This document shows positions 4,854-22,941 of a stretch of DNA of 64,000 bases, one piece after another. Location: positions 1,009,189 through 1,073,188 of the forward strand of contig JBJMOW010000004.1 in the NCBI GenBank assembly GCA_045803545.1, read 5' to 3'. Under the pieces are notes generated by a model that saw only the letters and a program-made list of their open reading frames with translations, did no database searches and had not been told where the DNA came from. The position numbers and the translations under genes were made by a program. Position 1 is the first letter of the stretch. Each line of letters opens with the position of its first letter. The DNA comes from Gemmatimonadaceae bacterium. Lineage in GTDB: Bacteria > Gemmatimonadota > Gemmatimonadetes > Gemmatimonadales > Gemmatimonadaceae.

Positions 4854-6002
4854 CTACTGATACTGTATATAGAGAGGCTTCGGGTTCAGCATCAGTACTT
4901 CCGCTGGTGTCAGCAGCGGATCGCCCTTCTTCGTGTCGTTGTGATAAAAGAGCTTGAACCCGGTGTACTCGACGGGCTCGGCTTCGACATACGCGCGATA
5001 CGAATCGTACTTGAGCCATGGCTGTCCCCAGCCATCCATGTTGATGATCACCTGCACCCGTGGATCGAGCTTTATCGCCTTCGAGTCACTGAGCATGCGT
5101 CGCGTGAATCGATGCACTATGAGAATCTTCGGGGGCAGGTTGTACTGCTTGACGAGTCCCGACAGCAGGTTGATCGCGAAGTTGACGTCGCTCGCGGTCA
5201 TGGTGCCGATCTTTGTACCGGGCTTACTTCCGTCCTTCATCGAGAACTCGGGATCGATCGCGAGCATCACGTCAGGACGCTGCAGAAATGGAACGAGCCG
5301 AGGCAATTCTTCCTGCACAGTGCTCTGTCCGACTTGTACATCCAGGAACAGGATTGCGTGCTTTTTCTGCGCCCAACCGTAGACCATGTTGATCAGGCTG
5401 TCGGTCATGCGCAGGCGATACTTGCCGTCCCTGCCGGGTGCTCCCTGCGCCACGACGGCGATTAGGTGCAGCGCCGGCTGCACTGGATGCGACGGATCCG
5501 CCCTGGTCCACGCCGCGATTTCCTTGTCGAAGCGCGCCAGCATTTGGTCGGGTGGCAGCTCGCCGAGGATACCCATCTTTTTAGAAAGCGGATTTCCGTA
5601 GTAGGCGACGATTCTCTTTTGCGGGAGGATCGCGCCAGGTAGCGGTCGCGGCGCGGTCGTCACCGGCCAATCCTTGTTTGCCAATCCGGCTTTGACTGCG
5701 GCGACGAGAGCGAGGCTGTCCTTTTTCGTGCGCCCTTTGATCGTTGGCACGGTGATCGGCGGATCCTTGGCTGCGGAATCTTTGCCGACCCCCTTCACGG
5801 TGCTCGATGCACTTGGGCTCGTTGTCGCGCTCGCCACAATTGCCGGCGTCGGCTGTGCAGCGAGCGCGGTCGGCGGGCTTTCTGGGGAAATCGTCTGGCC
5901 TGTCGGCGACGGAGTTGCGTCCTTGCTCGCCGCGCAGGCGAACGAGGCGATGACCGCTGCTGGAAGGATCGAGAAATATCTATTGAACAATGTTGAGCTC
6001 AT
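4854..6002 (-). CDS. Secreted protein or lipoprotein of unknown function
   Basis: 382 aa. It has a hydrophobic N-terminus with Cys (AVIASFACAAS), a low-complexity Ala/Pro/Thr linker, and then a roughly 270-aa globular domain. No motif I can name with confidence. Confidence 0.6.
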   Translation of the reverse strand: MSSTLFNRYFSILPAAVIASFACAASKDATPSPTGQTISPESPPTALAAQPTPAIVASATTSPSASSTVKGVGKDSAAKDPPITVPTIKGRTKKDSLALVAAVKAGLANKDWPVTTAPRPLPGAILPQKRIVAYYGNPLSKKMGILGELPPDQMLARFDKEIAAWTRADPSHPVQPALHLIAVVAQGAPGRDGKYRLRMTDSLINMVYGWAQKKHAILFLDVQVGQSTVQEELPRLVPFLQRPDVMLAIDPEFSMKDGSKPGTKIGTMTASDVNFAINLLSGLVKQYNLPPKILIVHRFTRRMLSDSKAIKLDPRVQVIINMDGWGQPWLKYDSYRAYVEAEPVEYTGFKLFYHNDTKKGDPLLTPAEVLMLNPKPLYIQYQ

Positions 6003-6062
6003 TAACTGATGAGATTTTTTGGTGAGGCGATGAATGTTTTACACCAATTCAACAATCACGCC

Positions 6063-6141
6063 GATGGCGGGATGAGGGATGGGGATGAGAGATGGGGTAG
6101 GAGCGATCCGTTTGTCGTGCATCCCCCATCCCGTATCCCGG
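6063..6141. repeat. G-rich heptamer-type array (GGGATGA variant) with a C-rich inverted partner
   Basis: gatggcGGGATGAGGGATGGGGATGAGAGATGGGGtagg (6063-6103) faces gCATCCCCCATCCCGTATCCCgg (6119-6141). This is hairpin potential; the G tracts also fit a G-quadruplex pattern. Confidence 0.6.
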
Positions 6142-6154
6142 TCCAGTTATTGCC

Positions 6155-6175
6155 TTCGGTATATATTCGGTATAC
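6155..6175 (+). promoter_or_regulatory. Candidate operator/promoter, site 1 (TTCGGTATATATTCGGTATAC), upstream of imuA
   Basis: Direct repeat TTCGGTAT with 11-bp phasing and an embedded TATACT. It ends 12 nt before the imuA ATG. Near-identical copies occur at 13179-13200 and 19765-19786. Confidence 0.45.
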
Positions 6176-6187
6176 TATAGCAGAGCT

Positions 6188-6877
6188 ATGTCCGATCGCA
6201 ACGCCGCCCTCCGCGCACTCATCGAGCATCGATTTCCTGATGCAACACCGGTCACCCACCGGACCGCGGAGCCGGTGGCAACCGGGATCAGCGCGCTCGA
6301 TGGAATTCTACCAGGACATGGCTTGCCGCGCGGAAGACTCACGGTCTGGATGCCGCAAGGTGGAGCAACTGCGGTACTGAGAGCGGCGTGTAACACCACC
6401 GTCGCACAGGGTGAGCGCGCAGTCTGGATCGATGGACTCGGCACTGTTGCCGGACCGTTCTGGGAAGAAGGCACGATCCTGGTTCGTCCAAAGACACGCA
6501 AACATGGATTGCGTGGCGCCGAAGAACTTCTGCGCTGTGGTGGATTCGCGCTCGTCGTCATCGCCGGCATCGAGCCGGAAGGAACGGAGACAGTTCGCCT
6601 CTCTCGTGCCGCGCGCGAAGGAGGAGGTGCGCTCGTCACTCTGACATCGCACGCCTCGATGGCCAGTTTGCGCATGACGTCGAAGATCCTACGCGAGACT
6701 TATCGCTGGAAAAAAACTCCATTCGGTGATCCAGCCGAAGCGCAGGAAGTGATGCTGCGCGTCCGCGCCTTCTCCCTCGGCTGGAACAAGAGCGCGGATT
6801 TCCCCGTACGGGTCATACCATATGACGTCCGCGACTCTTTGGAAGCGGGCCTCGTCGATCGACGGGGTGTCCGCTGA
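6188..6877 (+). CDS. imuA: ImuA-like (RecA/SulA-fold) translesion mutasome protein
   Basis: 229 aa. It shows ATGISALDGILPGHGLPRGRLTVW...AVWIDGLGT...LLRCGGFALVVIAG, the ImuA/SulA-like pattern. ImuB-like and DnaE2 genes are in the same window behind the same upstream motif. Confidence 0.7.
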   Translation: MSDRNAALRALIEHRFPDATPVTHRTAEPVATGISALDGILPGHGLPRGRLTVWMPQGGATAVLRAACNTTVAQGERAVWIDGLGTVAGPFWEEGTILVRPKTRKHGLRGAEELLRCGGFALVVIAGIEPEGTETVRLSRAAREGGGALVTLTSHASMASLRMTSKILRETYRWKKTPFGDPAEAQEVMLRVRAFSLGWNKSADFPVRVIPYDVRDSLEAGLVDRRGVR

Positions 6878-6881
6878 CTGA

Positions 6882-7006
6882 GGATTGAGGCGTTCGGACC
6901 AACAGCCAGTGCGGAGTCCGGATTAAGTGAGGAATTCGGAAAAGTTCTCTCACCTCAATTATTCCGAAATCCGCCGGTCTGGCAGTTTGTCCGAACGCCT
7001 CAATCC
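6882..7006. repeat. Perfect 18-bp inverted repeat separated by 89 nt
   Basis: GGATTGAGGCGTTCGGAC (6882-6899) is the exact reverse complement of GTCCGAACGCCTCAATCC (6989-7006). The element lies between the imuA stop and the likely ECF sigma start. Confidence 0.8.
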
Positions 7007-7046
7007 GCACCCAAGCCCGGAGTCCTCGCCTCCACCGAACGGTTTA

Positions 7047-7622
7047 ATGGATCTCCGTGTCGAAGGTAGTAAGCATGGTCGTGACGATCAGCGAGTGAAC
7101 GAAGCGGAGCTTATCGCCCGAATCATCGACGGAGATAGGCTGGCCGGGCGGGCGCTGTACGACATGCACGCACCCCGGGTGTTCTCGCTCGCTTATCGAA
7201 TGAGTGGTGACGCAGAGAAGGCGCGGGAGTTTACGCAGGATGCATTCATCCGAGCGTTCTCGAGGTTGTCGCAGTTTCGCGGCGAAGCCGCTTTCTCAAC
7301 GTGGCTGCACCGCATCGTCGTCACGGTCGTGTCGAATGCACGACGCAACGAGGTACGGTTTGGGCGCGAAGTAGCGCTGGACGAGGCTCACTCGATCGAA
7401 TCCACCGCGGCGGAAGCCGAGCCCGACTTGAAGGAATCGATAGAGAGGGCGGTGAACAACCTGTCGGAAGCTTATCGCACCACGCTGATACTGCACGACG
7501 TTGAGGGATATACCCACGCGGAAATAGCCGTCATGCTCGGTGTCCCCGAGGGGACCTGCAAGAGCCGGCTTTCTGTGGCAAGAGCGCAGCTGAGAGAAGC
7601 ACTGGCTGCATTCAAGGAGTAG
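7047..7622 (+). CDS. ECF-type RNA polymerase sigma-70 family factor
   Basis: Region 2 is DAFIRAF...FSTWLHRIV. Region 4 HTH is EGYTHAEIAVMLGVPEGTCKSRLSVARAQLRE. I moved the start to ATG 7047 (MDLRVEG) because the upstream part of ORF 6927.. covers the inverted-repeat element. Confidence 0.85.
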   Translation: MDLRVEGSKHGRDDQRVNEAELIARIIDGDRLAGRALYDMHAPRVFSLAYRMSGDAEKAREFTQDAFIRAFSRLSQFRGEAAFSTWLHRIVVTVVSNARRNEVRFGREVALDEAHSIESTAAEAEPDLKESIERAVNNLSEAYRTTLILHDVEGYTHAEIAVMLGVPEGTCKSRLSVARAQLREALAAFKE

Positions 7623-7626
7623 GACG

Positions 7627-8259
7627 ATGGACGAAGATCGTTTCGAAGAGGTGATTCGCGATTTGCCGCGGAGCTTCAACGCTCCGCCGCCGCCTCCACT
7701 CGACGAGATGTGGGGCGTGATCGAGGACGCTCACTTCAATTCGCCACAATCGAAATCGACATCGCGTAGCAGTTTTCTGACGACGCCGTGGCTTGCCGCT
7801 GCAACGTTGCTCGTCGGTATTGGTATTGGTGCGTTATTCCCGCGAGCCAAGCCGCCAGCGACGGTTCAGGCTCCCGTCGCACAGAGCGCCCTTCCGCGAG
7901 AGACATCGGCGGTCGCGGACGTGTATCGCGATCAGACTCAACAGTACCTCGGCCAGGCTGCAGCGCTTCTCATTTCTCTGCCGGCGAGGGACGGAAGCAA
8001 GACCGCTGATTCAGCGTTTGCCAACAAGGCCGCCGATCTTCTCGTCACGACGCGACTGCTGATCGATTCACCCGCGGCATCGCGCGATGTCAAACTGCGT
8101 TCGCTGCTCGACGATCTGGAGTTGGTGCTGGTTCAGATCGCGCGCCTCCGTAACGAGCGTTCGCGCAGTGATCTCGATCTGATTCATCAGGCAGTCGAGC
8201 AGGGAGACGTGCTGTCACGCCTCAACTCCGCAGTCGCCACAACTCAATCCTCCGAGTGA
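7627..8259 (+). CDS. Putative anti-sigma factor (single-pass membrane protein)
   Basis: 210 aa and starts 5 nt after the ECF sigma stop. One TM helix (TPWLAAATLLVGIGIGALF) lies between a short cytoplasmic N-domain and a periplasmic C-domain. The call rests on position and topology only. Confidence 0.6.
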   Translation: MDEDRFEEVIRDLPRSFNAPPPPPLDEMWGVIEDAHFNSPQSKSTSRSSFLTTPWLAAATLLVGIGIGALFPRAKPPATVQAPVAQSALPRETSAVADVYRDQTQQYLGQAAALLISLPARDGSKTADSAFANKAADLLVTTRLLIDSPAASRDVKLRSLLDDLELVLVQIARLRNERSRSDLDLIHQAVEQGDVLSRLNSAVATTQSSE

Positions 8260-10034
8260 GAACCAGGATGACCAGAGCCACTCTTATCGCTGCAGCTTTC
8301 GTTTGCGCGCTGCCGCTTGCGGCGCAAAACCCGACTCCCGCGCCGCCGGCACCACCCGCGCCTGCCGCCCCGCCTGCTGATATCGACATCGAGATGCCGG
8401 ACTTGCCCGACATGCCGGACATCCCCGATATGCCGGACATCCCGGATATGCCGGACATCCCGGATATGCCGGACATGCCCCTGCTTGCACCAATGCTCAT
8501 GGACCTGGATCTGATCGGACCAGCGTTGGCGCCTCTCGGCGCGCTCTCCGACATCGATTTCGATTTCGAGATGCCGGAAATGCCCGAGATCCCTGACATG
8601 CCCGGTGTACCGTACAGTCCCGACATCCCACCGATGGCGTTGGCTCCGCGCATTGCGATGCCGGCGGTGCCGATGATCGCAATGCGACCAGCTGTGCCAG
8701 GTGTAACGCCCCTCATCGCGATTACTCCCGCGGCAAGCATTGGCTGGCAATCCCGATTCGACCAGGCATTCAGCGGCATCACCTCCAATCCGCCCGAGTC
8801 GTGGGCGCAAACAGACCCCGCCGATTCGCTTTATAGACTGGCGCGTACTGCGCTGAATCGAGGCGAGTATCGCCGTGCCGCCGATCTCTTCGGCCAGATC
8901 AGTCAGAAATTTCCGAACTCGGTTTATGCTTCCGACGCCCGATACTGGCGTGCCTTCGCGCTCTACCGAATCGGCGGACACGACGATTTGCGCGTCGCAC
9001 TCGTTTCACTGCAGGACAGTGGGCGTGGGTTTCGTCAGCAATCGCTCCAGACTGACGCGCCGGTTCTCGCGGCAAGAATTCGTGGGGCACTCGCGCGTGA
9101 CGGAGACGAAAGCGCTCGACAGGCGCTCCAGACCGCTGCCACCCAACCTGGCGTGTGCGATCGTGAAGATCTCGCCGTTCGCGTGGAGGCGCTTAACTCG
9201 CTCGGTCAGACAGACCCGGAGTCAACCACTCCGATTCTGCGCCGTGTTCTCGCCCGCCGCGACGACTGCTCGGCGGCTCTTCGTCGCGCCGCGCTGTACC
9301 TGCTTGGGCGTCGCACTGACGACGAAGCGCGCGATCTCATCATCTCCGCCGCGCGCAACGATCCCGACATTCAAGTCCGCGCCGATGCCCTTCGTTTTCT
9401 GGCCGCGATGCCGGGCGATCAGCCGATCGCCACAATTGAAGAGATGGTGCGCACTCCCGGCAATGAGCAGCTCCAACGCGCGGCGATCGCCGCGCTTGGC
9501 AGAAGCGATAGCCCCCGCGCCCGTCAGAGTCTGCACAACGTAATCGAGCGCACCGATCTCTCGGAGAGCCTGCGCGCCACTGCGCTCTTGAGCGTCAGCG
9601 CGGATCGCTCGGGGGACAACGGAGCCTACTTACGATCGATCTACCCGCGGCTCGACACCCCACGGCTGAAAGGAGAGGCGATTCGCGCGATCGCGCGGAT
9701 CGGCGGCAACGACAACGATCAGTTTCTGCTCTCGATAGTTCGCAATCAGAGCGAATCACCTGATGTGAGAGCGACCGCCCTGCGCTCGGTTGGCCGGTCT
9801 ACTATCTCGATCGCGGATCTGTCGAAAATGTACGACGCAGCAGATGACCGTCGGCTGCGCGAGCAGCTGATCGGACTGTTCGCTCAGCGAGACGACCCGC
9901 AGGCGACGGACAAACTCCTCGAGATCGCGCGCAACGGAACCGATCCCGATATGCGCCGCTACGCCATTTCCGCTCTGTCGCGCAAGAATGATCCGCGCAC
10001 CAAGAAGCTCTTACTGGAGATCATCGACAAATGA
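8256..10034 (+). CDS. Exported HEAT/ARM-repeat protein with an N-terminal (D/E)-x-P repeat tract
   Basis: 592 aa. The start overlaps the anti-sigma stop (GTGA). Signal peptide is ATLIAAAFVCALPLAAQ. It carries repeated D-P-D-x-x-V-R-x-x-A-x-x-x-L units (NDPDIQVRADALRFLA, ESPDVRATALRSVG, TDPDMRRYAISALS). Confidence 0.7.
   Translation: MRTRMTRATLIAAAFVCALPLAAQNPTPAPPAPPAPAAPPADIDIEMPDLPDMPDIPDMPDIPDMPDIPDMPDMPLLAPMLMDLDLIGPALAPLGALSDIDFDFEMPEMPEIPDMPGVPYSPDIPPMALAPRIAMPAVPMIAMRPAVPGVTPLIAITPAASIGWQSRFDQAFSGITSNPPESWAQTDPADSLYRLARTALNRGEYRRAADLFGQISQKFPNSVYASDARYWRAFALYRIGGHDDLRVALVSLQDSGRGFRQQSLQTDAPVLAARIRGALARDGDESARQALQTAATQPGVCDREDLAVRVEALNSLGQTDPESTTPILRRVLARRDDCSAALRRAALYLLGRRTDDEARDLIISAARNDPDIQVRADALRFLAAMPGDQPIATIEEMVRTPGNEQLQRAAIAALGRSDSPRARQSLHNVIERTDLSESLRATALLSVSADRSGDNGAYLRSIYPRLDTPRLKGEAIRAIARIGGNDNDQFLLSIVRNQSESPDVRATALRSVGRSTISIADLSKMYDAADDRRLREQLIGLFAQRDDPQATDKLLEIARNGTDPDMRRYAISALSRKNDPRTKKLLLEIIDK
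8391..8480 (+). repeat. Coding tandem repeat, 9/18-bp period, encoding EMPDLPDMPDIPDMPDIPDMPDIPDMPDMP
   Basis: The units atgccggacatccc(c/g)gat are repeated head to tail, giving ten consecutive acidic-x-Pro triplets in the protein. Confidence 0.9.
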
Positions 10035-11299
10035 CTGTCAGCCGTTTCGTAGCGATCGCGGTCGCTGGCGCGATCGTCGGCACCAGCGCGTCAGCGCAAT
10101 CTCTGGCCAACCGCGTCGCGTCAGCGTCCGATCGTTCAGTGCAGTTCACCTACAAGGCGCGGCCGGGTGTATGCGGCGACGGTCGCACTTATATCTCCAC
10201 TGGCCCGGGAAACTTCTATGGCTTCAATTCGAGCGACAGGGCTGACCAGTGTCAGGCCGGTCCCGTGCGCGTGGTGGTCGACCTCGCCGACAGAAACGTT
10301 GTCGCGCTGCGCACGTACGTCGGCATTCCGTCCACCGGCCTCGACGCGAGCGTTTCGAACCTCGGCAACGTAACTCCAACGGATGCCGCTGACTTCCTGC
10401 TGGGCGTAGCTGGGCGGGCCGATGGTCGCATCGGGCGCGACGCGATCTTTGCCGCGCTGCTTGGCGACAGTGTCGACGTCAGCTCGCGATTACTGACGAT
10501 TGGCCGCGACGGCAATCGTCCATTGGAGACTCGTCGAGCCGCTCTCGCCGGCCTGGCGCGTACGGATTCGCGCCAGCTCGATGCGATTGGCTCGTCGCTC
10601 GTCCAGATCGCTACCAACGAGAGCGATGTCCAGGGTGCGCGTGAGGAGGCGCTTCGAGTTCTGTCGAGACTCGATCACGGAGCCGGCATCCAGCCGCTGA
10701 TTCGTCTTGCCAACAGCAACGCGACTTCATGGATTGGTCGGGAGAGCATGCGTGTACTCGCGTCTTCGGGCGATCCGCGTGCCCGGGATTTTCTGCGCGC
10801 GACGGTGCAGCGCACTGACGTCCCCGATGAATTGCTTGCGTCGGCGATTCGTGGTCTCGGCCGCAACTATGTCACCGGACAGGATGCGACTTTGCTGCGC
10901 TCGCTTTATCCAAAGGTCACCGGAGATAAATCACGCGACGCCATCCTGGCGTCGCTAGCGAACCTGGGCGGCGCTGACAACGTGCAATGGCTCACCGATG
11001 TCGTCCGGAACGAGCAGCTTTCGCCTGACGCTCGTCGCCGAGCGCTTGTCTATCTCACCCGCGCCGGCGCGCCGACGCCCACGCTGGTTGCGCTCTACGA
11101 TCCGCTCACCGACTCACAGTTGCGTGGCGAGTTGATCAGCATCTACTCGCGCGCGGGCGACAAGTCAGCGACCGACAAACTCGTCTGGATTGCGCGCAAT
11201 GAGCAGAACTATCAGTTGAAGCGACGCGCGATCGGTGCGCTGTCGCGGAATTCAGATCCCGCGATCAGGCAGGCGCTGCAGGGTATTGTCGAGCGTTAA
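10031..11299 (+). CDS. Exported HEAT-repeat protein, paralog of the preceding gene
   Basis: 422 aa with an ATGA overlap with the upstream gene. Signal peptide is AIAVAGAIVGTSASAQS. HEAT-like units include GDPRARDFLRATV and LSPDARRRALVYL. The C-terminus RRAIGALSRNSDPAIRQALQGIVER parallels YAISALSRKNDPRTKKLLLEIIDK in the upstream gene. Confidence 0.7.
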   Translation: MTVSRFVAIAVAGAIVGTSASAQSLANRVASASDRSVQFTYKARPGVCGDGRTYISTGPGNFYGFNSSDRADQCQAGPVRVVVDLADRNVVALRTYVGIPSTGLDASVSNLGNVTPTDAADFLLGVAGRADGRIGRDAIFAALLGDSVDVSSRLLTIGRDGNRPLETRRAALAGLARTDSRQLDAIGSSLVQIATNESDVQGAREEALRVLSRLDHGAGIQPLIRLANSNATSWIGRESMRVLASSGDPRARDFLRATVQRTDVPDELLASAIRGLGRNYVTGQDATLLRSLYPKVTGDKSRDAILASLANLGGADNVQWLTDVVRNEQLSPDARRRALVYLTRAGAPTPTLVALYDPLTDSQLRGELISIYSRAGDKSATDKLVWIARNEQNYQLKRRAIGALSRNSDPAIRQALQGIVER

Positions 11300-11892
11300 C
11301 CGGCGATCCGCCGGCGCTTGGCTGTAACTTCGGTATTCTCGACGAGGCGTGGAGCACTCCACGTCTTGTCGAGGACTTTCTGGAAGCAGCGCTTCGGAAT
11401 GATCTCGACGCCCGATTTGGCGAGGGTGTCGTAGCGGGCCAGCTTCTCGGGGTAGCGCGAGATCGTGCAAGCCTTGTAGCCAAGCGACAGGAAGAAATTG
11501 TCGGTGAGGCTCAGCGCGAAAACTTCTTCGATGTCGCGCGCGCGAGCGAGCCGCTCGACGCCCAGCACCACCTGAGTGCCCAATCCCTTGCCGTGCTGGG
11601 TTGGCGATACGGCCACTGAGGATACCTCGGCCAGCGAGGGCGAATACTCCTCGAGCGCCGCGCAGGCGAGCACGCGACCGGCAGCGTCCGTTGCAACGAC
11701 GTAGTTGTCGATGCGCGAAGCGATCTGGTCCAGGGTGCGTGGCAGCATCAGCCCCTGAGCCGCGTACGGGGACACGAGCTCGAGGATCTGGGCCGCATCC
11801 GCCCGCGCTGCCCGGCGCACGATCTGCTGGGCCGGCTTGCGGCGATCAGAAAGCCCCCGGAGAGGCTTGGCTGCACTTGGGATTTTATGCAC
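11296..11892 (-). CDS. GNAT N-acetyltransferase (short N-acetylglutamate-synthase-like)
   Basis: 198 aa. The acetyl-CoA motif is VAVSPTQHGKGLGTQVV. The overall pattern matches short ArgA-like amino-acid acetyltransferases. GTG start at 11892. Confidence 0.8.
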   Translation of the reverse strand: MHKIPSAAKPLRGLSDRRKPAQQIVRRAARADAAQILELVSPYAAQGLMLPRTLDQIASRIDNYVVATDAAGRVLACAALEEYSPSLAEVSSVAVSPTQHGKGLGTQVVLGVERLARARDIEEVFALSLTDNFFLSLGYKACTISRYPEKLARYDTLAKSGVEIIPKRCFQKVLDKTWSAPRLVENTEVTAKRRRIAG

Positions 11893-11919
11893 GAAGAATG
11901 TATATATACACAGCCTTCG
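11892..11919. promoter_or_regulatory. Palindromic operator-like element abutting the GNAT start codon
   Basis: CGAAG-aa-TGTATATATACA-cagc-CTTCG. The central 12-bp palindrome is perfect (11899-11910) and the outer 5-bp arms are complementary. It contains a TATATA hexamer 11 nt upstream of the GTG start on the minus strand. Confidence 0.35.
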
Positions 11920-11955
11920 TGGCGCAAGAGTTTGAGGGAGGACTTGGACTGATAA

Positions 11956-12128
11956 CTACCGCGCTCGTAGCTGATAGCAGCAGGCTGTTAGCTGATGGCT
12001 GCCTGCAACCAGACAGATCCCATAGAATAAAAGCGAGCAGAACGCTGTGCCTCTACGTTGTCGCGATCTGTCCCGTCGCCTGCAGCGAATAGCTATTAGC
12101 TAGCTGCTATCAGCTACCCGCGAGGTAG
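11956..12128. repeat. Imperfect 26-bp terminal inverted repeats enclosing 121 bp (MITE/REP-like)
   Basis: Compare CTACCgcgctcgTAGCTGATAGCAGC (11956-11981) with the reverse complement of 12103-12128, CTACCtcgcggGTAGCTGATAGCAGC. There are additional inner GCTGTTAGCTGA / TAGCTATTAGCTAGC repeats. Confidence 0.6.
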
Positions 12129-12150
12129 TGCGCTTTCAATGTCCGCGGTC

Positions 12151-12615
12151 CTAGTAGCTGGCGAACACCCGGTTCTTCCCATTCCGATCGAATGCGATGA
12201 CCTGGTAGTGCTGCTTCATCGCTCCTTCCATCCCCGGTGATCCCATCGGCATTCCGGGAACAGCCAGCCCCTTCACCGCGGGCTTCGCTGCGAGCAATCG
12301 GTCGATGTCCGCTGCCGGCACGTGCCCCTCAATGAGGTAGCCCTCGACAACGGCTGTATGACACGATCTCAGATCGGGCGGTACGCCAAGCGTGGCTTTG
12401 ATCTGCGCCATGTCGGGCGTGTCCTTGGCATCCACGCGGTAGCCGTGCTTGATGAGATGCTCGATCCAGTTTTTGCAGCAGCCGCAGCTCGGATCTTTGT
12501 AAACCGTGATCGTGGGTTTTTTCGGAGCAACCACGGTCGGTGCCGCAGCGGTCGTAACGGTCAGGGCAGCGGCGCAAACCGCGACCGCGAATAAGCTGAA
12601 TGAGCGCTTGGTCAT
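12151..12615 (-). CDS. DUF411 (CopG-like) periplasmic metal-binding protein
   Basis: CGCCKNWIEHL, SCHTAVVEGYLIEGHVPA and GLAVPGMPMGSPGME are DUF411 signatures. Start ATG 12615 forms an ATGA overlap with the DinB-family stop, and a signal peptide follows it. Confidence 0.85.
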   Translation of the reverse strand: MTKRSFSLFAVAVCAAALTVTTAAAPTVVAPKKPTITVYKDPSCGCCKNWIEHLIKHGYRVDAKDTPDMAQIKATLGVPPDLRSCHTAVVEGYLIEGHVPAADIDRLLAAKPAVKGLAVPGMPMGSPGMEGAMKQHYQVIAFDRNGKNRVFASY

Positions 12616-13151
12616 TGAGGCAGGGATTTGAGTGTGCGTTCGATTTGTTTGCGGTGTCGCGCTTCGTGGTGGCCGACGAAAATTAGCCACTGATACAGAT
12701 CGAGCTCGCCAAGTACGATGTGGGTGTGCTTGATGTCGCCGATCGCCAACCCATCAGCAGAGACGACCGCCGACCGTAAAGCTTCACGCGAGGTCTCCAG
12801 TCCGTCGATTGCTTCATTGATGTCGACGTCGGTTCGTGGCTGAACGAGAGTGGGCGCCTGGAGTAATCCGGATTCCAGCTTGGCTGCGTGAGAGTCGAAC
12901 GATCGCATTACCGACGATGTCGATGTTTCGTCCCGAAGGCCTTCTTCGCGCGCCTTCGCCACACGCTTGGTGATAAGGCGCGCGACACCCGACTCCACCA
13001 TCCGCAGATGTTCGAGGATCTCCGCGACGGACCAGCCGCTTGGATCCGCTCGTTGGCAAAGTCTTGTGCCGGAGACGCCGGCGAAGCTGTTGAGCAGCTC
13101 GCGTCGCTTCTCCTCCACATAACTCATCGTTTCGGCGAGTCTGGGGTGCAC
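12612..13151 (-). CDS. DinB-superfamily (DinB_2-like) metalloenzyme
   Basis: 179 aa. WSVAEILEHL...GHHEARHRKQIERTL carries the conserved His residues of the four-helix DinB fold. Confidence 0.8.
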   Translation of the reverse strand: MHPRLAETMSYVEEKRRELLNSFAGVSGTRLCQRADPSGWSVAEILEHLRMVESGVARLITKRVAKAREEGLRDETSTSSVMRSFDSHAAKLESGLLQAPTLVQPRTDVDINEAIDGLETSREALRSAVVSADGLAIGDIKHTHIVLGELDLYQWLIFVGHHEARHRKQIERTLKSLPQ

Positions 13152-13178
13152 GTTTCTAATGTAGTCATGGGGCTTGGC

Positions 13179-13200
13179 TTCGGGTTATATTCGGTATATA
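13179..13200 (+). promoter_or_regulatory. Candidate operator/promoter, site 2 (TTCGGGTTATATTCGGTATATA), between the DinB-family gene and imuB
   Basis: Same TTCGG-N6-TTCGG architecture as 6155-6175, with an embedded TATAAT (13196-13201). It lies in the 74-bp divergent intergenic region. Confidence 0.45.
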
Positions 13201-13225
13201 ATTGATCCCCCCGCTTCGCTCTGCA

Positions 13226-14596
13226 ATGTTTATCTGCCTCTGGACTCCCGCTGCTTTTCCTGCTCTCCCGCTCTTCGCTGAGGAGGGAGTCGTCCAGGAG
13301 AGCGAGCTGCTCAATGAGCTGGTTCCGGAGCTCCTCAACGTCGCACCGCGCGTCACGATCGGCTCGAGAGGAGTTGTGTGGGCAGATGCCCGCGGACTAG
13401 ATGCCGAGCTCCTCGCCAACGATCTTCTCGATGTCTTCCATCGACATGTTCCATCCTGCCTCCCGCCTCCCGCCTCCCGCCTCCCGCTTCCCGCGAGAGC
13501 GGCGATCTCGCTCGTACCAATCACCGCGGAAGTGGCAGCACTGCATGGCAACGGTGGGCTAGTCAGGATCCCGGTCGGCACCGAGCGGGAATTTCTGGCG
13601 CCGTTTCCGATCGGAGTGCTCGAAGCATCGCCGTTTCTGGCGTCGCTGCTCGATGGAATCGGAGTCGAGCGCTGTGCCGATCTGGCGAAGCTCGATCTGG
13701 AATCGATCGAGGTCCGGTTCGGCGCCGAAGGCGCCAATCTCTGGAGATTGGCGAGAGCCGACGACACGCGTCGCATCTTCAAGACGGTGCCGCGTGCGCT
13801 GCCGACTGCTTCGCTCGACTGGCTGGATTACACTCTGCGCGACGCCGAGCGTCTCGTCTTCATCATTAACTCGCTCGTCGGCAACATCACCACCGAGCTC
13901 AAGTCGCGCGGGCAATGTGCGCGTGAGATGACGTTGGTATTCTCGCTGGCAAACCGTGAGACCCTCGAGCAGCTGGTGCGCCCGGCGCGGTCCACGGCGA
14001 GCCACAAAGCGTGGATGAGATTGATGCGCTCGCACCTGGAGCGACTCTCTCTGCCCGACGGTGTCGTCGGCATTACCGTTCGCGTCGAGTCGGTAACCGG
14101 TGAGGTCGAGAAACAGGGCGACATCTTCGATCGCGGCTTCGGCACCGCGCGCGCGGCCGAGGAGACCATCGCGCAGCTCCTCGATGACCAGGGCGCGGTG
14201 GTCGTCACGCCACGAAATTCACAGCATCCGTTGATCGACCGCCGCACCGAGTGGGTCACTCAGGAGCCATCCCAGGCATCGGCGCGCATTCAGCTGCGGG
14301 AGCGAGTGGTGAAAGCGACGGCGGCCCCGCGTCTGACGCTGCAATTATTGCCAGAACCCAAGAGAGTGGCGGTAACGACACGCCGTCGTCGCGATCACGA
14401 CATGCCGATCCAGTATCGCGACAAAGAGTGGGCAACTCTCGTCTCCGCCGCCGGTCCCGATCGTGTGTCAGGTGGCCAATGGACCGAGCCCTACGCGCGC
14501 GAATATTTCCGCTGCGTCACTGATGACGGAATGATGGTCTGGCTATTCCGCGATGCGCGCGATAGCGAGTGGTATTTGCACGGCTGGTGGGATTAA
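13226..14596 (+). CDS. imuB: ImuB-like (Y-family polymerase-like) mutasome protein
   Basis: The N-terminus MFICLWTPAAFPALPL resembles the canonical ImuB start (CLW.P.WPL). About 456 aa. It occurs in context with imuA and dnaE2. The start is taken at ATG 13226; the TTG at 13202 is also possible. Confidence 0.7.
   Translation: MFICLWTPAAFPALPLFAEEGVVQESELLNELVPELLNVAPRVTIGSRGVVWADARGLDAELLANDLLDVFHRHVPSCLPPPASRLPLPARAAISLVPITAEVAALHGNGGLVRIPVGTEREFLAPFPIGVLEASPFLASLLDGIGVERCADLAKLDLESIEVRFGAEGANLWRLARADDTRRIFKTVPRALPTASLDWLDYTLRDAERLVFIINSLVGNITTELKSRGQCAREMTLVFSLANRETLEQLVRPARSTASHKAWMRLMRSHLERLSLPDGVVGITVRVESVTGEVEKQGDIFDRGFGTARAAEETIAQLLDDQGAVVVTPRNSQHPLIDRRTEWVTQEPSQASARIQLRERVVKATAAPRLTLQLLPEPKRVAVTTRRRRDHDMPIQYRDKEWATLVSAAGPDRVSGGQWTEPYAREYFRCVTDDGMMVWLFRDARDSEWYLHGWWD
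13461..13495. repeat. Five tandem heptamers (TCCCGCC x3, TCCCGCT, TCCCGCG) inside the imuB coding sequence
   Basis: Read directly from the sequence. The tract encodes CLPPPASRLPLPA. The complementary strand reads CGGGAAGCGGGAGGCGGGAGGCGGGAGG, the same family as the intergenic arrays. Confidence 0.9.
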
Positions 14597-14762
14597 TTAC
14601 TCAGAACTGCGCGCTGCTAGCCAACGAATCAGTCCCAGCTGCGAGCTAAGACCGAAATTCGAACCTATTGCGAGTTAAGAGCAAACGCTCCATCCAAGCT
14701 CGTACCTCGCACTGGGCTCGCAAATCGGACTCAGATCGCACCTCGGATTCACCCGTATTGCA

Positions 14763-19055: not shown

Positions 19056-19059
19056 CTAG

Positions 19060-19116
19060 AGTAAGGATTTGCTGTGGAATTCTCGACAGTAAGGATTTGC
19101 TGGTGGAATTCTCGAC
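19060..19116. repeat. Tandem direct repeat, 2 copies of 28/29 bp
   Basis: AGTAAGGATTTGCTGTGGAATTCTCGAC (19060-19087) is followed by AGTAAGGATTTGCTGGTGGAATTCTCGAC (19088-19116). The pair sits immediately upstream of the DUF2723 start codon (19055). Confidence 0.9.
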
Positions 19117-19148
19117 TGAATTTTAGTCACTAAACGTCGGGCGTGCGG

Positions 19149-19670
19149 TCATCGGCACGTAAGCTCGCGACGAGAAATGATCACCCGGGTTACCTGGGAT
19201 GAATTGTGTACGAAACACGCCCGTCCTTTTCTGAAAGTCAGCCCGCGAGCCGGCGTTCCGACACCAATTCCGTTCGACGTACGAAATGCAGGACTCGAGC
19301 TGCCAACGGTCTCGATCAGACTGTCCTTTCCTGCGACGGTGAAGACGATCAATCCGCCGGTTACTGATACTCCGAATACCGGTCCCTGGATCGCTACCGA
19401 TCCAGGGACCTTGATGACTGCCACTCGGCAACGCTGCCGAAGTCGCCTCAGTGGCGTACTCACAGTGACCGGCCCGATGCTGGCCGCAGTGATGAGCACC
19501 CCTGTGGGCTCGAGGCAGGCCTGGTCGCTGATCGCAACCGGATCGCCGTGTGAGAAGACGTCCGGCGAGAGCTTGGCCACGTCGTTTGCCTTCGCCGCCT
19601 CCCCGTCCGTACAGCCCCCAACCGTCGACAGGCCCATAATTACCGTAAGGACTTTCCTATAGCTCGGCAT
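19149..19670 (-). CDS. Putative lipoprotein, unknown function
   Basis: 173 aa with the lipobox-like LSTVGGC near the N-terminus. Its codon usage is more plausible than the overlapping + strand ORF 19177..19662. Confidence 0.45.
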   Translation of the reverse strand: MPSYRKVLTVIMGLSTVGGCTDGEAAKANDVAKLSPDVFSHGDPVAISDQACLEPTGVLITAASIGPVTVSTPLRRLRQRCRVAVIKVPGSVAIQGPVFGVSVTGGLIVFTVAGKDSLIETVGSSSPAFRTSNGIGVGTPARGLTFRKGRACFVHNSSQVTRVIISRRELTCR

Positions 19671-19764
19671 CGCCCCCCAACTCGCAGACCCCGCGCCGAG
19701 AACCGCGCCGCTGGCCCCGGACCGGCGGGCACTAGTCGCTGCAAGTCGTTTTCAGTTGACGGTT

Positions 19765-19786
19765 TTCGGTATATATTCGGGTATGG
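19765..19786 (+). promoter_or_regulatory. Candidate operator/promoter, site 3 (TTCGGTATATATTCGGGTATGG), at the dnaE2 start
   Basis: Same architecture as sites 1 and 2. The TATATA hexamer ends 7 nt before ATG 19783, so the second half-site overlaps the start codon. This is compatible with a leaderless mRNA. Confidence 0.45.
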
Positions 19787-22700
19787 GATTTGTTGAGCTT
19801 CGTGCCCATACCGCCTTTTCGTTCGGCGACGGCGGCACCTCACCCGAGGCGCTTGCTGCCCGTGCTGCATCACTCGGCTACCGTGCGCTGGGCATAACCG
19901 ATACGGCCGATCTGGGCGGCATCGTTCGATTTTGTCTGGAAGCGAGACGAGTCGGGCTGAAAGCGATTGTTGGCGCCGAGCTCAATATCGATGGCTGTCC
20001 CGTCGCCTTTCTGGCGCAGAACAAAACCGGGTTCAACAACATCGCCTCGCTTGTAACGAGGTCGCGAGTTGGCGAGCTATCGACGTGGCAGAAAGGAGAC
20101 GGCAAGAAAACGCGGGGTCGGCCGCGACTATCGTGGCAACAGGTAGCTGAGCGGAGCGAAGGAGTGCAGGTGCTGACCGGCCCGCTCACGGGTCCGGTCG
20201 CATCTCACCTCCGCAACGGCGAGTATCGTGAAGCGGAACACACGCTGTGCCGGTGGCGATCCGTTTTTGGTGAGCGACTCGCCGTCGAAGTGCAGCTGCA
20301 TCACGCCAGCGGTACCGAAGCCGCGCTCGGTGCTGCCTTGATCGAGCTGGCCGAGCGACACAACGTGCCGTGGGTCATCTGCCACGAGCCGCGCTACATC
20401 GACAACGGCACGCGACTCGTCCACGATGTTCTGACATCGCTGCGCTACGATGCGACCATCGACGACGCTGTCGCGCGCGGACTACTACATCCAAATGGTG
20501 AGTGGCGTCTCGTCTCGGCCGAGGAGATGGGTCAGCGATGGAAAGGTCGCGAGCAAGGACTCGAGGAGAGTGAGCGCATCGCCGACGAGTGCGATTTCAA
20601 TCTCTCATGGGTTCGTCCGCCTCTGCCAAAGTTTCCTGTTCCGCCCGGTTACGACGACGACACCTTCCTGCACGAGAAAGCTTTCGAGGGTGCGCGTGAG
20701 CGTTGGGGCGAACTCGACCAAAAGCAAATCGATCAGCTGAACCACGAGCTGCGGGTGATCGGTAATCTCGGCTTCGCGGGATTTTTCCTCGTGATGTGGG
20801 ACGCGGTGCATTTCGCCAAGTCGAAAGGGATTCTCTGCCAGGGTCGCGGCAGCGCCGCCAACTCGGCGGTGGCTTATTGTCTCGCGATCACGGCGGTAGA
20901 TCCGGTTCGGCATGGTCTGCTGTTCGAGCGATTTCTCTCGGAGATCCGCGTCGATGGGCAGACTGAAGCGCCGGACATCGATGTCGACATCGAGCACGAT
21001 CGCCGAGAGGAAGTGCTCGACTATGTCTATGGGAAGTACAATCGCGCGCAGGCGGCGATCACCTGCGTCGTGCAGATGTACCGCGGGCCGAATGCAATTC
21101 GCGATTCAATGCGCGCCTTCGGTTATCCGGTGGAGATGGCGAACAACATCTCCAAGCGCATCCATTGGAGCGATCCTGCCGAAGGGGCGAAGTACGTGGA
21201 GCAGGAGCTCGCGCCAAAGCTCGGCATCGATTTCGACAATCCGCGTGGACGTGCGACGCTGGCAGCGATGGCAGCGTTCGAAGGAGTGCCGCGTCTGCGC
21301 TCGACGCACGTCGGTGGCTTCGTACTCTCGTCTGCTCTGCTCGGCGATTACATGCCCGTCGAGCACACGACGATGGGTCGCACAATCATCCAGTTCGACA
21401 AAGATGATCTCGATGCGGTCGGAGTTCCCAAGTTCGATTTTCTGGGACTCGGTGCGCTGTCGCTGGTGAGACGCGCGTTCGACATGATCGAGGTACGCAC
21501 GGGAACGCGGCCGGAGATGTACAGGCTGCCGCCCGACGATGAGAAAACCTACGAGCTGATCGCGAGCGGTGAGACGATTGGCACCTTCCAGATCGAGAGT
21601 CGAGCGCAGATCGCTTCAGTGTTGCACACGAAGCCCGATCGGTTATACGACATCGTCGTGCAGGTGGCGCTGATTCGTCCCGGTCCGATCCAGGCAAACT
21701 TCGTCCATCCATATACTGCGCGCCGTCGCGGACTCGAGCCGGTGACGTATCAGCATCCCGATCTGGAGCCGATTCTCAAGAGGACGCAGGGCATTCCGAT
21801 TTTCCAGGAGCAGGCGATGGCGATCGCGATGAAGCTCGGTGGTTACTCGGCGGCTCAGGCCGACGAGCTGCGCCGCACCATGGGACACATCAGAAAAGTC
21901 GAGAAACTGCACCGCGTGCTCGAACAGCTCCGACAGCGCATGGTTGAGCGCGGAGTCACTGAAGATGTCGCGACCAGGATCGCCGAGGATCTAAAGAGCT
22001 TCGCGAATTATGGATTCCCGGAGTCGCACGCCTGGAGCTTCGCACTGATCGCTTACGCGACGGGTTATCTCAAGGCTCACTATACGGCGGAGTTCTACGC
22101 CGGATTGCTGAATTCTTATCCGATGGGATTCTATCCGCCGTCGACATTGATACATGATGCTCGCCGCCACGGTTTACAAGTCTTGCCGCCTTGCATGCGC
22201 GATGGCGACTGGGAATGCACCACCGAGCCGACTGACAATCCTGACCGCCCCGCGCTCAGAATCGGCTGGCGCCACATCCGCGGACTCGGCGAGAAATCAC
22301 TCGACGCGCTCAAGGCAGCGAGAGGGTGGGATCGATTCTCTTCGATCGACGATGTCATCGACAGAGCAAAGCTCCAGCGCACTGATGCACTGCAGCTGGC
22401 GCGCGCCGGCGCTTTCGCGTGCTGGGAGCCTGATCGACGTCGCGCGGCATGGGTGGCAATGCGGGCGGTGGGAGATTGTCTACCGCTGGCGCCGGCGCGT
22501 CATGTACCGTACGAGCCGCGTCCGCTGACGCGAGACGAGCTGATCTTCCTCGACTATTTCTCGGTCGGCATCAGCGTCAGCGGGCATCCCATGGAGCATC
22601 TGCGCGACGAGCTGCGCGGCAAGGGCGTACTCGATTCCAAACAGCTACTGAAGCTGAAGGGCGGGGAATGGATCAAGACTGCCGGCCTCGTCACCATCCG

Positions 22701-22941
22701 CCAGCAGCCGCAGAGCGCAAAAGGAACTGTATTTCTGCTGATGGAGGATGAGTTCGGCTTCATCAACGTCATCGTCTCGAAGAAGATGGTCGAGGAGTAC
22801 GCGGAGGTAGTGAGGTTCTCGACCTTCGTGCTGGTAGAAGGGAAGTTCGAGCGCGACGACGGCGTGCGGAACGTCATCGGCAGGAAATTCAGTGAGCTCG
22901 AGGTGAAGGAGCTGGTTCATGCCTCCAGGGACTTTCATTAG
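19783..22941 (+). CDS. dnaE2: Error-prone DNA polymerase III alpha-like subunit DnaE2
   Basis: The PHP domain starts at VELRAHTAFSFGDGGTSPEAL. Polymerase core motifs are GRGSAANSAVAYCLAIT and PDIDVDIEHDRREEV, followed by an OB fold near the C-terminus. About 1052 aa without the long tau-binding tail of DnaE1. ImuA and ImuB partners are nearby. Confidence 0.9.
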   Translation: MGFVELRAHTAFSFGDGGTSPEALAARAASLGYRALGITDTADLGGIVRFCLEARRVGLKAIVGAELNIDGCPVAFLAQNKTGFNNIASLVTRSRVGELSTWQKGDGKKTRGRPRLSWQQVAERSEGVQVLTGPLTGPVASHLRNGEYREAEHTLCRWRSVFGERLAVEVQLHHASGTEAALGAALIELAERHNVPWVICHEPRYIDNGTRLVHDVLTSLRYDATIDDAVARGLLHPNGEWRLVSAEEMGQRWKGREQGLEESERIADECDFNLSWVRPPLPKFPVPPGYDDDTFLHEKAFEGARERWGELDQKQIDQLNHELRVIGNLGFAGFFLVMWDAVHFAKSKGILCQGRGSAANSAVAYCLAITAVDPVRHGLLFERFLSEIRVDGQTEAPDIDVDIEHDRREEVLDYVYGKYNRAQAAITCVVQMYRGPNAIRDSMRAFGYPVEMANNISKRIHWSDPAEGAKYVEQELAPKLGIDFDNPRGRATLAAMAAFEGVPRLRSTHVGGFVLSSALLGDYMPVEHTTMGRTIIQFDKDDLDAVGVPKFDFLGLGALSLVRRAFDMIEVRTGTRPEMYRLPPDDEKTYELIASGETIGTFQIESRAQIASVLHTKPDRLYDIVVQVALIRPGPIQANFVHPYTARRRGLEPVTYQHPDLEPILKRTQGIPIFQEQAMAIAMKLGGYSAAQADELRRTMGHIRKVEKLHRVLEQLRQRMVERGVTEDVATRIAEDLKSFANYGFPESHAWSFALIAYATGYLKAHYTAEFYAGLLNSYPMGFYPPSTLIHDARRHGLQVLPPCMRDGDWECTTEPTDNPDRPALRIGWRHIRGLGEKSLDALKAARGWDRFSSIDDVIDRAKLQRTDALQLARAGAFACWEPDRRRAAWVAMRAVGDCLPLAPARHVPYEPRPLTRDELIFLDYFSVGISVSGHPMEHLRDELRGKGVLDSKQLLKLKGGEWIKTAGLVTIRQQPQSAKGTVFLLMEDEFGFINVIVSKKMVEEYAEVVRFSTFVLVEGKFERDDGVRNVIGRKFSELEVKELVHASRDFH

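What the first reader, a model, noticed from the sequence alone, without database searches (positions are those of the whole stretch)
6155..6175. Shared 21-22 bp direct-repeat motif in front of imuA, imuB and dnaE2: candidate lineage-specific SOS operator
There are three near-identical sites. Site 1 is 6155-6175, TTCGGTATATATTCGGTATAC, ending 12 nt before the imuA ATG. Site 2 is 13179-13200, TTCGGGTTATATTCGGTATATA, in the 74-bp divergent region between the DinB-family gene and imuB. Site 3 is 19765-19786, TTCGGTATATATTCGGGTATGG, overlapping the dnaE2 ATG at 19783. Each consists of two TTCGG(G)TAT half-sites phased 11 bp apart, which is one helical turn. Each also embeds a -10-like hexamer (TATACT / TATAAT / TATATA), so it looks like an operator sitting on a promoter for short-leader or leaderless mRNAs. 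By eye I found no other full copy in the 64 kb. imuA-imuB-dnaE2 cassettes are classically LexA-repressed. This sequence does not resemble the LexA boxes I know (CTGT-N8-ACAG, GAAC-N4-GTTC, GTTC-N7-GTTC).
Basis: partly seen in the sequence, partly recalled or inferred. Interest (0 to 1): 0.75.

Follow-up and report, generated by a model that had tools for sequence, protein, structure and literature searches.

The report
Gemmatimonadota SOS operator: TTCGG direct repeat
The three repeated 16-bp sequences in front of imuA, imuB and dnaE2 are real copies of a control site that, across the phylum Gemmatimonadota, sits on the promoters of recA and other DNA-damage genes; it is very probably the phylum's so far undescribed "SOS box", but the protein that binds it was not found.

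Summary
Observation confirmed. TTCGG-N6-TTCGG occurs three times in the window (6155, 13179, 19765). A weight matrix built from 101 independent sites scores them 34, 33 and 30 bits. The next best window hit scores 12.7 and shuffles reach at most 10.6.

Interpretation largely supported.
- In 679 kb around ImuA homologues, all 100 exact copies lie upstream of imuA, imuB or dnaE2.
- A scan of 185,579 genomes returned 120 stretches; 79 are labelled Gemmatimonadota.
- 68 of the 122 sites lie directly upstream of recA (15), a Rv2578c/PA0069-type radical-SAM gene (14), imuB-like genes (about 14), dnaE2 (11), imuA (10), Pol IV, uvrA or a DinB_2 gene.

This is an SOS-type regulon. The box sits inside sigma-70-type promoters, either between -35 (cTTGC) and -10 or straddling the -10. 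That is repressor geometry.

Not shown: the regulator. No canonical lexA was found in about 3 Mb of Gemmatimonadota DNA held.

Side finding: the box also precedes a conserved operon that encodes an ECF sigma factor and a LexA/CI-like self-cleaving S24 protein.

Verdict: new variant of a known kind.

The parts
6155..6175 (+). SOS box 1 (core TTCGGTATATATTCGG, 6155-6170) in the imuA promoter
   Evidence: PSSM score 34.1 bits. The orthologous site is conserved upstream of imuA in 73 or more related loci.
6150..6178 (+). Inferred imuA core promoter: -35 TTGCCT (6150-6155), 17-nt spacer holding the box, -10 TACTAT (6173-6178). The predicted start lies about 3-5 nt before the ATG.
   Evidence: Read from the sequence. 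The relatives' consensus is cTTGCTT-17-TATTCT. This promoter falls below the threshold of the consensus scan, so it is inferred.
6188..6877 (+). imuA-like gene (229 aa, RecA-fold paralogue)
   Evidence: NCBIfam ImuA_translesion hit, E 3e-9, below the curated cutoff. Homologues are in Gemmatimonadaceae.
12612..13151 (-). DinB_2/YfiT-superfamily gene, divergent from imuB. Its promoter region shares box 2.
   Evidence: Pfam PF12867. A DinB_2 gene with its own paired boxes is present in L187.
13179..13200 (+). SOS box 2 (core 13179-13194) in the imuB promoter, within the spacer of TTGGCT-17-TATAAT (13174-13202)
   Evidence: PSSM score 29.6 bits. Promoter scan gives 10 of 12 matches. The site is conserved upstream of imuB in 13 or more loci.
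13226..14596 (+). imuB-like gene (456 aa, Y-family polymerase paralogue)
   Evidence: Weak NCBIfam Pol IV similarity. Orthologues carry the box.
19765..19786 (+). SOS box 3 (core 19765-19780), straddling the -10 TATATT (19772-19777) of TTTTCA-17-TATATT and touching the dnaE2 ATG. The mRNA is probably leaderless.
   Evidence: PSSM score 33.4 bits. The relatives' dnaE2 promoters carry 12 nt more between the box and the ATG.
19783..22941 (+). dnaE2 (error-prone Pol III alpha paralogue)
   Evidence: Pfam PHP, DNA_pol3_alpha, finger and HHH_6 domains.

Best explanation
The motif is the DNA-damage (SOS) operator of the phylum Gemmatimonadota. It is a 16-bp direct repeat, kTTCGG-N6-TTCGGk, with half-sites one helical turn apart and an A/T-rich centre (nnTnTn, often kATATr).

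It is superimposed on ordinary sigma-70-type promoters, in which the lineage's -35 is cTTGC and the -10 is TAnnnT.
- In the window's clade it fills the spacer between -35 and -10 (imuA, imuB).
- In most other Gemmatimonadales, and at the window's dnaE2, it straddles the -10.

A repressor bound there would keep RNA polymerase off the promoter. After DNA damage the repressor would be inactivated, and recA, uvrA, Pol IV, the radical-SAM repair gene and the split imuA / imuB / dnaE2 mutagenesis genes would be expressed together. Because the cassette is split here into three separate transcription units, each carries its own copy of the box.

The repressor is most likely a LexA that recognises a direct repeat, as in Alphaproteobacteria, Acidobacterium and Balneolaeota.

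Shown: the motif, its conservation, its regulon and its position relative to promoter-like elements.
Inferred: repression, damage induction and the identity of the protein.
For: 1. Specificity. All 100 exact copies in 679 kb around ImuA homologues are upstream of imuA, imuB or dnaE2 and face the gene. In more distant relatives, each 20-kb locus has one copy before imuA and one before imuB and none elsewhere. Where imuB directly follows imuA (L003, and Gemmatirosa plasmid 1) there is a single copy.

2. Regulon. The genome-collection scan with TTCGGKATATRTTCGGK returned 120 stretches. Of these, 79 are labelled Gemmatimonad*/Longimicrobiales. The genes downstream are RecA 15, radical SAM 14 (Rv2578c/PA0069 family), ImuB-like about 14, DnaE2 11, ImuA 10, Pol IV 2, UvrA 1 and DinB_2 1. 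Further boxes lie before tag, another radical-SAM gene and another imuA. The same gene set is LexA-regulated in other phyla (PMC7739468; PMC8565304; PMC3919608).

3. Repressor geometry. The -35 cTTGC lies 1-4 nt (type A) or 9-11 nt (type B) upstream of the box. The -10 is then just after the box or inside it. The same cTTGC -35 occurs in an unrelated promoter.

4. Resemblance to known LexA boxes. The 11-bp direct-repeat phasing matches GTTC-N7-GTTC. The right half is GTTCGG in 47 of 73 sites. Direct-repeat LexA boxes are documented.

5. The box precedes an operon that contains a LexA/CI-type self-cleaving S24 protein in six contexts. This links the box to the RecA-sensing protein family.
Against: No canonical lexA was found in about 3 Mb of Gemmatimonadota DNA held. 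This includes all 120 motif-selected loci and the whole 1.1-Mb Gemmatirosa plasmid 1. recA appeared 15 times among the motif hits and lexA never. So lexA either lacks a box of the ATAT type, or is not autoregulated, or is absent from the phylum.

Every site faces its gene. A symmetric repressor does not require this.

Promoter elements and transcription starts are inferred from sequence only.
Confidence: 0.62

Rival explanations
1. The anatomy and regulon are the same, but the protein that binds the box is not a canonical LexA. It is a lineage-specific damage-responsive repressor, comparable to the non-canonical S24 repressors of Bacteroidetes, UmuDAb of Acinetobacter or DdrO of Deinococcus.
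For: Canonical lexA was never seen, while recA was hit 15 times. Gemmatimonadota belong to the same superphylum as Bacteroidetes, which lack canonical LexA (PMC8565304). A LexA-like S24 family with a non-LexA N-terminal domain exists in the lineage and is under the box.
Against: That S24 family has about 165 clusters, against more than 1000 for ImuA, so it is too rare to serve a phylum-wide regulon. Its N-terminal domain is a helical bundle with no DNA-binding match, and its gene is translationally coupled to an ECF sigma gene. This points to an anti-sigma role rather than a repressor role. Absence of lexA from a 3-Mb sample of many genomes is weak evidence.
Confidence: 0.24
2. The motif is, or is part of, the promoter read by the box-linked ECF sigma factor. 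DNA damage would make the S24 protein (acting as anti-sigma) cleave itself, free the sigma factor, and so activate the regulon. This would be positive control.
For: The box precedes the sigma/S24 operon in six contexts, as expected for a self-activating ECF sigma. The sigma protein is a genuine ECF fold. The S24 protein keeps the AAG cleavage site, the GxSM serine and the lysine. All boxes face their gene.
Against: The two half-sites are separated by only 6 bp, whereas sigma-70-family -35 and -10 elements need about 15-18 bp. Separate -35 (cTTGC) and -10 (TAnnnT/TATATT) elements with 16-18-bp spacing are present, and the box shifts by one repeat unit relative to them. The sigma/S24 pair is far rarer than the regulon, and it was not detected in the window (no S24-domain ORF; the ECF sigma gene at 6927-7622 is not followed by one).
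Confidence: 0.06
3. The motif is the binding site of a tandem-binding activator, such as an OmpR/PhoB-type response regulator or a WYL/PafBC-like activator of damage genes.
For: The direct repeat has one-helical-turn phasing and a fixed orientation toward the gene, which is typical of such activators. PafBC controls recA and repair genes in Actinobacteria (own knowledge).
Against: In type-B promoters the site covers the -10 and the discriminator. No known activator class works from there. Its position relative to -35 is not fixed.
Confidence: 0.05
4. The motif is a generic promoter sequence or a chance or recently duplicated repeat with no regulatory role.
For: It contains -10-like A/T-rich hexamers. 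Sites 1 and 3 share an identical 16-mer.
Against: There are three sites in 64 kb and none elsewhere. The motif is conserved across orders of the phylum, before the same functional class of genes. An unrelated lineage promoter lacks it.
Confidence: 0.01

Closest known systems
Alphaproteobacterial / Acidobacterium capsulatum LexA box GTTC-N7-GTTC
   Same: Both are direct repeats, not palindromes. Both have 11-bp phasing and a TTC core. In relatives the right half is GTTCGG. Both control recA and imuA-imuB-dnaE2 (box as listed in PMC9578287; Acidobacterium reference cited in PMC7739468).
   Different: The half-site here is longer (TTCGG, with invariant GG). The left half rarely starts with G. The centre is A/T-rich, with two nearly invariant T. 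The window's own sites read CTTC/ATTC, not GTTC. The binding protein is unknown here.
Balneolaeota LexA box TTACACATATTTTWTACATA
   Same: It is a direct-repeat LexA box of a phylum related to Bacteroidetes. Its regulon includes recA, translesion polymerases and a radical-SAM protein (PMC7739468).
   Different: The half-site sequence is unrelated. LexA binding was shown there by EMSA; here it was not.
Gram-positive LexA/DinR box CGAAC-N4-GTTCG
   Same: The right half with centre, ATATGTTCG, is identical to the commonest Gemmatimonadaceae form kATATGTTCGG (box as in PMC9578287).
   Different: The left half is not the inverted GAAC. It is a second TTCGG, 11 bp upstream.
LexA-regulated imuA-imuB-dnaE2 mutagenesis cassette
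   Same: The same three genes are present, and contiguous or split arrangements under one operator type are known (PMC3919608).
   Different: Here the three genes are 6-7 kb apart, with unrelated genes between them and one box each. ImuA and ImuB are too divergent for Pfam.

Membership tests
SOS box (operator of the LexA regulon) | The same motif lies upstream of recA and other core DNA-repair or translesion genes across genomes of the lineage | tested here: met
   recA 15, radical SAM 14, imuB-like about 14, dnaE2 11, imuA 10, Pol IV 2, uvrA 1, tag 1
SOS box (operator of the LexA regulon) | The motif overlaps core promoter elements, as expected for a repressor | tested here: met
   It lies between -35 and -10 or straddles the -10. 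This is from sequence only; no transcription starts were mapped.
SOS box (operator of the LexA regulon) | The motif lies upstream of lexA itself (autoregulation) | tested here: inconclusive
   No lexA was found in any sequence held, about 3 Mb, so its promoter could not be examined.
SOS box (operator of the LexA regulon) | LexA binds the site, and the genes are induced by DNA damage in a RecA-dependent way | not testable with these tools
   This needs EMSA or footprinting and expression data.
Alphaproteobacterial-type direct-repeat box GTTC-N7-GTTC | Direct repeat with 11-bp phasing | tested here: met
Alphaproteobacterial-type direct-repeat box GTTC-N7-GTTC | GTTC in both halves | tested here: not met
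   The base before the right TTC is G in 47 of 73 sites. The base before the left TTC is T in 53 of 73. The window sites read C/A, C/A and T/A.
imuA-imuB-dnaE2 cassette | A RecA-like ImuA, a Y-family-like ImuB and DnaE2 under a common operator | tested here: met
   The arrangement is split, with one box per gene.
ECF-sigma-dependent promoter | Two conserved elements separated by about 15-17 bp, at a fixed distance from the transcription start | tested here: not met
   The repeats are separated by 6 bp, and the box moves relative to the cTTGC -35.
Generic housekeeping promoter | The motif is found before many unrelated genes | tested here: not met
   There are only 3 hits in 64 kb and 4 exact cores in a 1.1-Mb plasmid. 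The unrelated GNAT promoter lacks it.

The most novel reading that the evidence does not exclude
Gemmatimonadota do not run their damage regulon through a canonical LexA. The TTCGG direct repeat is bound by a different, still unidentified repressor. In Gemmatimonadaceae the box also controls an operon that encodes an ECF sigma factor and a translationally coupled protein. That protein has a C-terminal half that is a LexA/lambda-CI self-cleaving domain and an N-terminal half that is a helical, anti-sigma-like domain. It would be a RecA-triggered, self-destructing anti-sigma factor, giving a second, positive tier of the SOS response.
Probability: 0.2. Interest if true: 0.85.

Novelty: new variant of a known kind. 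Interest (0 to 1): 0.6.

Why it matters
SOS boxes differ between phyla, and each newly described one has helped trace how LexA changes its DNA specificity. No paper in the searchable library describes one for Gemmatimonadota, a widespread soil phylum.

This motif defines the phylum's damage regulon from sequence alone. The regulon comprises recA, uvrA, Pol IV, tag, a radical-SAM repair enzyme and a split mutagenesis cassette.

The motif also adds another instance of a direct-repeat box, close to the alphaproteobacterial one. It gives a concrete probe for finding the regulator.

The box-controlled ECF sigma / S24 autoprotease pair would be a new way of coupling RecA sensing to transcription, if it acts as proposed.

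Tried and rejected
1. Looked for lexA and recA in the window and in all fetched loci. Methods were tblastn with E. coli and B. subtilis LexA and an S24 HMM on six-frame ORFs. No canonical lexA was found.

2. Fetched the whole 1.1-Mb Gemmatirosa plasmid 1 in 23 calls. It carries imuA-imuB-dnaE2 with one box but no lexA or recA.

3. Ran tblastn of E. coli LexA against plasmids. The search saturated with enterobacterial hits and was useless.

4. The gene upstream of recA looked LexA-like at its C-terminus. It is a YraN-type endonuclease.

5. Tested the S24 protein as master repressor. Rejected as unlikely: the family is rare, its N-terminus is not a DNA-binding fold, and it is coupled to a sigma factor.

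6. Tested the E. coli-like CTGT-N8-ACAT palindrome near 11900 as the 'real' LexA box. Rejected: it occurs only in one conserved context before a GNAT gene and never before recA.

7. Compared with the Bacteroidetes non-canonical LexA motifs (GGA-N5-TCC, CTAA-N5-TTAG). They are unrelated.

8. Searched Rfam over 5900-20000. There was no relevant RNA family.

9. Ran hhalign of the sigma-like profile against the window's ECF sigma. It was uninformative with four sequences.

10. Non-Gemmatimonadota hits of the genome scan are explained as chance. Examples are NuoC coding sequence (I-R-D-M-F-G) in Nitrospira MAGs and 11-bp tandem repeats in Bacteroidales.

Full report
**1. The observation**

Each is a direct repeat of TTCGG with 11-bp phasing and an A/T-rich centre.

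With up to three mismatches the 20-mer is expected 0.00 times in the window. The bare core TTCGG-N5-7-TTCGG is expected about once and occurs three times, always on the + strand just before imuA, imuB and dnaE2.

A weight matrix trained only on 101 sites from other genomes scores the three sites 34.1, 33.4 and 29.6 bits. The next best position in 64 kb scores 12.7, and shuffled sequence reaches at most 10.6. There is no fourth copy.

The gene calls are broadly right. ImuA and ImuB are divergent. The 'DinB-family' neighbour is a DinB_2/YfiT-type protein, not Pol IV. The window holds no lexA or recA.

**2. Lineage and conservation**

ImuA homologues are named Gemmatimonadaceae.

In 80 metagenome loci around ImuA relatives plus three assembly loci (679 kb), there are 100 exact TTCGG-N6-TTCGG copies. 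Every one lies upstream of imuA, imuB or dnaE2 and faces the gene.

In more distant relatives (65-74% ImuA identity), each 20-kb locus has one copy before imuA and one before imuB and none elsewhere. Where imuB directly follows imuA there is a single copy. This holds in L003, and in the cultured Gemmatirosa kalamazoonensis plasmid 1, whose imuA-imuB-dnaE2 operon carries one of only four exact cores in 1.1 Mb.

So each transcription unit of the split cassette carries its own copy.

**3. The regulon**

It stopped at 120 stretches, and 79 of them are labelled Gemmatimonadota (Gemmatimonadales, Longimicrobiales).

Of the 122 sites, 68 have one of the following genes directly downstream in the same orientation:

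| Downstream gene | Sites |
|---|---|
| recA | 15 |
| Rv2578c/PA0069-family radical-SAM protein | 14 |
| ImuB-like Y-family paralogues | about 14 |
| dnaE2 | 11 |
| imuA | 10 |
| Pol IV | 2 |
| uvrA | 1 |
| DinB_2 | 1 |

Of the 54 sites with none of these, 39 are in other phyla. Some of those are plainly coding sequence or tandem repeats.

Additional boxes with other spacers in the same loci precede tag, a further radical-SAM gene and a further imuA.

This is the gene set that LexA controls in other phyla, including the radical-SAM protein (PMC7739468; PMC8565304) and the contiguous or split imuA-imuB-dnaE2 cassette (PMC3919608). ruvAB was not among the downstream genes found.

**4. Anatomy and mechanism**

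In the window's clade the consensus is cTTGCTTTCGGkATATgTTCGGGcTATtCTagcagagctATG. This reads as -35 TTGCTT, a 17-nt spacer that is almost entirely the box, -10 TATTCT, and an ATG a few bases after the predicted start.

In most other Gemmatimonadales (recA, radical SAM, imuB, dnaE2) a cTTGC -35 lies 9-11 nt upstream of the box. The -10 is then the TATATT inside the box.

In the window:
- imuB has TTGGCT-17-TATAAT around the box.
- dnaE2 has TTTTCA-17-TATATT, with the -10 inside the box and the ATG about 6 nt later.
- imuA fits TTGCCT-17-TACTAT. This is my reading; it falls below the scan's threshold.

The same cTTGC -35 occurs in an unrelated conserved promoter, so it is the lineage's ordinary -35.

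A site that moves by one repeat unit relative to -35 and -10, yet always overlaps them, is what a repressor needs. It is not what a sigma factor or an activator allows. The 6-bp gap between half-sites is also too short for -35/-10 recognition.

I therefore take the box to be a repressor operator. Repression, induction and transcription starts are inferred, not shown.

**5. Comparison with known boxes**

It does:
- The phasing is that of the alphaproteobacterial direct repeat GTTC-N7-GTTC (PMC9578287).
- The right half-site is GTTCGG in 47 of 73 non-redundant relatives.
- kATATGTTCG is the right half of the Gram-positive CGAAC-N4-GTTCG box.

LexA has evolved direct-repeat recognition several times (Alphaproteobacteria, Acidobacterium, Balneolaeota).

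The strict GTTC-N7-GTTC definition is not met, however. The left half is usually TTTC/CTTC, and the window's sites lack the G. It works like that box but is not a member of it.

No paper in the library describes a Gemmatimonadota SOS box.

**6. The regulator: the open point**

No canonical lexA turned up anywhere in about 3 Mb of Gemmatimonadota sequence held. recA was hit 15 times by the motif scan. This does not prove absence, because the sample is a mosaic of many genomes and the scan was restricted to ATAT spacers. It does keep 'LexA' an inference.

An S24 HMM found one hit in a motif-selected locus, L201. Following it up showed a Gemmatimonadaceae-specific family of 235-247-aa proteins (165 clusters). 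Their features:
- an invariant AAG cleavage motif, a GxSM serine and a lysine;
- a C-terminal domain that models as the LexA/lambda-CI autocleavage domain;
- an N-terminal 100 residues that form a helical bundle with no DNA-binding match.

The gene overlaps by 4 nt the end of a gene for a divergent ECF sigma factor. The evidence for that sigma factor is weak NCBIfam hits, JGI 'sigma24' names, an AlphaFold model and ECF sigma factors as the top Foldseek matches.

In six independent contexts the only exact box of the locus sits at the head of this operon. One of these is the cultured Gemmatirosa plasmid 2.

The pair is about six times rarer than ImuA in the protein collection, and no S24-domain ORF was detected in the window. 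I therefore read the pair as a regulon member, a possible RecA-cleavable anti-sigma, rather than the master repressor. It is the most novel thing seen, and it is unproven.

**7. Verdict**

The interpretation as a lineage-specific SOS operator is supported by the regulon test.

| Claim | Confidence |
|---|---|
| The motif is a DNA-damage-regulon operator | about 0.9 |
| It acts by repression | about 0.85 |
| The binding protein is a canonical LexA | about 0.6 |

This is a new variant of a known kind.

Noticed in passing
Related loci: L201 2651-4848; L233 4441-7086; L234 4181-6732; L235/L236 4482-7063; L243 3169-5740; L241 (Gemmatirosa plasmid 2) 4642-6369: A conserved operon sits under the SOS box. 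Its genes are a Slr1353_N-like protein, a divergent ECF sigma factor, a translationally coupled LexA/CI-type self-cleaving S24 protein with a helical non-DNA-binding N-terminus, and a protein of about 85 aa. The S24 protein may be a RecA-triggered anti-sigma factor. No paper was found on such a pairing.
   Followed up: partly
window 11893-11945 (minus strand), upstream of the GNAT-like ORF 11296-11892: A conserved element of about 60 bp, gAACnCTTGCG-N8/9-rTGTkTATATATACATTC-N3/4-rTGCATAAtTTCCCAA, is found 20 times in related loci, always between imuA and imuB. Its core is a perfect palindrome resembling the E. coli LexA box. Its flanks covary (CGAAGG/CTTCG, GGAGGG/CCTC, GGTGG/GCCA), which suggests a hairpin or a long palindromic operator. 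It is never found before recA. There is no Rfam match.
   Followed up: partly
window 11960-12150: The intergenic stretch between the GNAT and DUF411 genes is full of odd AGCTGATAGCAGCTAGCTAATAGCTA-type repeats. Similar repeats occur in both orientations in L005, L006 and L007.
   Followed up: no
window 19749-19786, compared with L049 19398 and with L085, L088, L145, L152, L190: The window's dnaE2 promoter lacks 12 nt (ACTCCGGGCTAT in L049) between the box and the ATG, and its -35 is displaced. The box has therefore changed from 'between -35 and -10' to 'straddling the -10', and it touches the start codon.
   Followed up: partly
L087, L108, L113, L119, L162 and other recA loci: In Gemmatimonadales recA lies 8 nt after the stop codon of a YraN-type endonuclease gene, so the recA -35 is inside that gene. 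A conserved GGCCTC...GAGGCC hairpin follows the box in the recA leader.
   Followed up: partly
L095 2415-2454; L187 2455-2496; L147 4533-4572; L109 6471-6513: Some promoters carry two boxes in inverted orientation a few bases apart. L121 has two in tandem. This points to possible cooperative binding or divergent control.
   Followed up: no
window 6927-11299: An ECF sigma gene, a 210-aa ORF without a domain, and two HEAT-repeat genes follow imuA. The same cluster lies between imuA and imuB in L002 but not in L227-L232. It is not the box-linked sigma/S24 pair.
   Followed up: partly
Gemmatirosa plasmid 1 (NZ_CP007129.1) positions 11106 and 64166: Two identical copies of a box (TTCGGGTTACGTTCGG) lie in a duplicated segment. 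Each is followed by a short ORF and a 168-aa membrane/zinc-ribbon protein. They may be small damage-induced proteins.
   Followed up: no
L135, L142, L192 (Bacteroidales MAGs); L112, L117, L123 (Nitrospira-type MAGs): These are off-target matches of the scan pattern. The Bacteroidales hits are 11-bp tandem repeats GGTATATGTTC. The Nitrospira hits are a conserved coding stretch (…E-I-R-D-M-F-G…, NuoC-like by my reading).
   Followed up: no
window 6066-6110: A G-rich stretch with repeated GATGGGG/GATGAGGG units lies just upstream of the imuA promoter.
   Followed up: no
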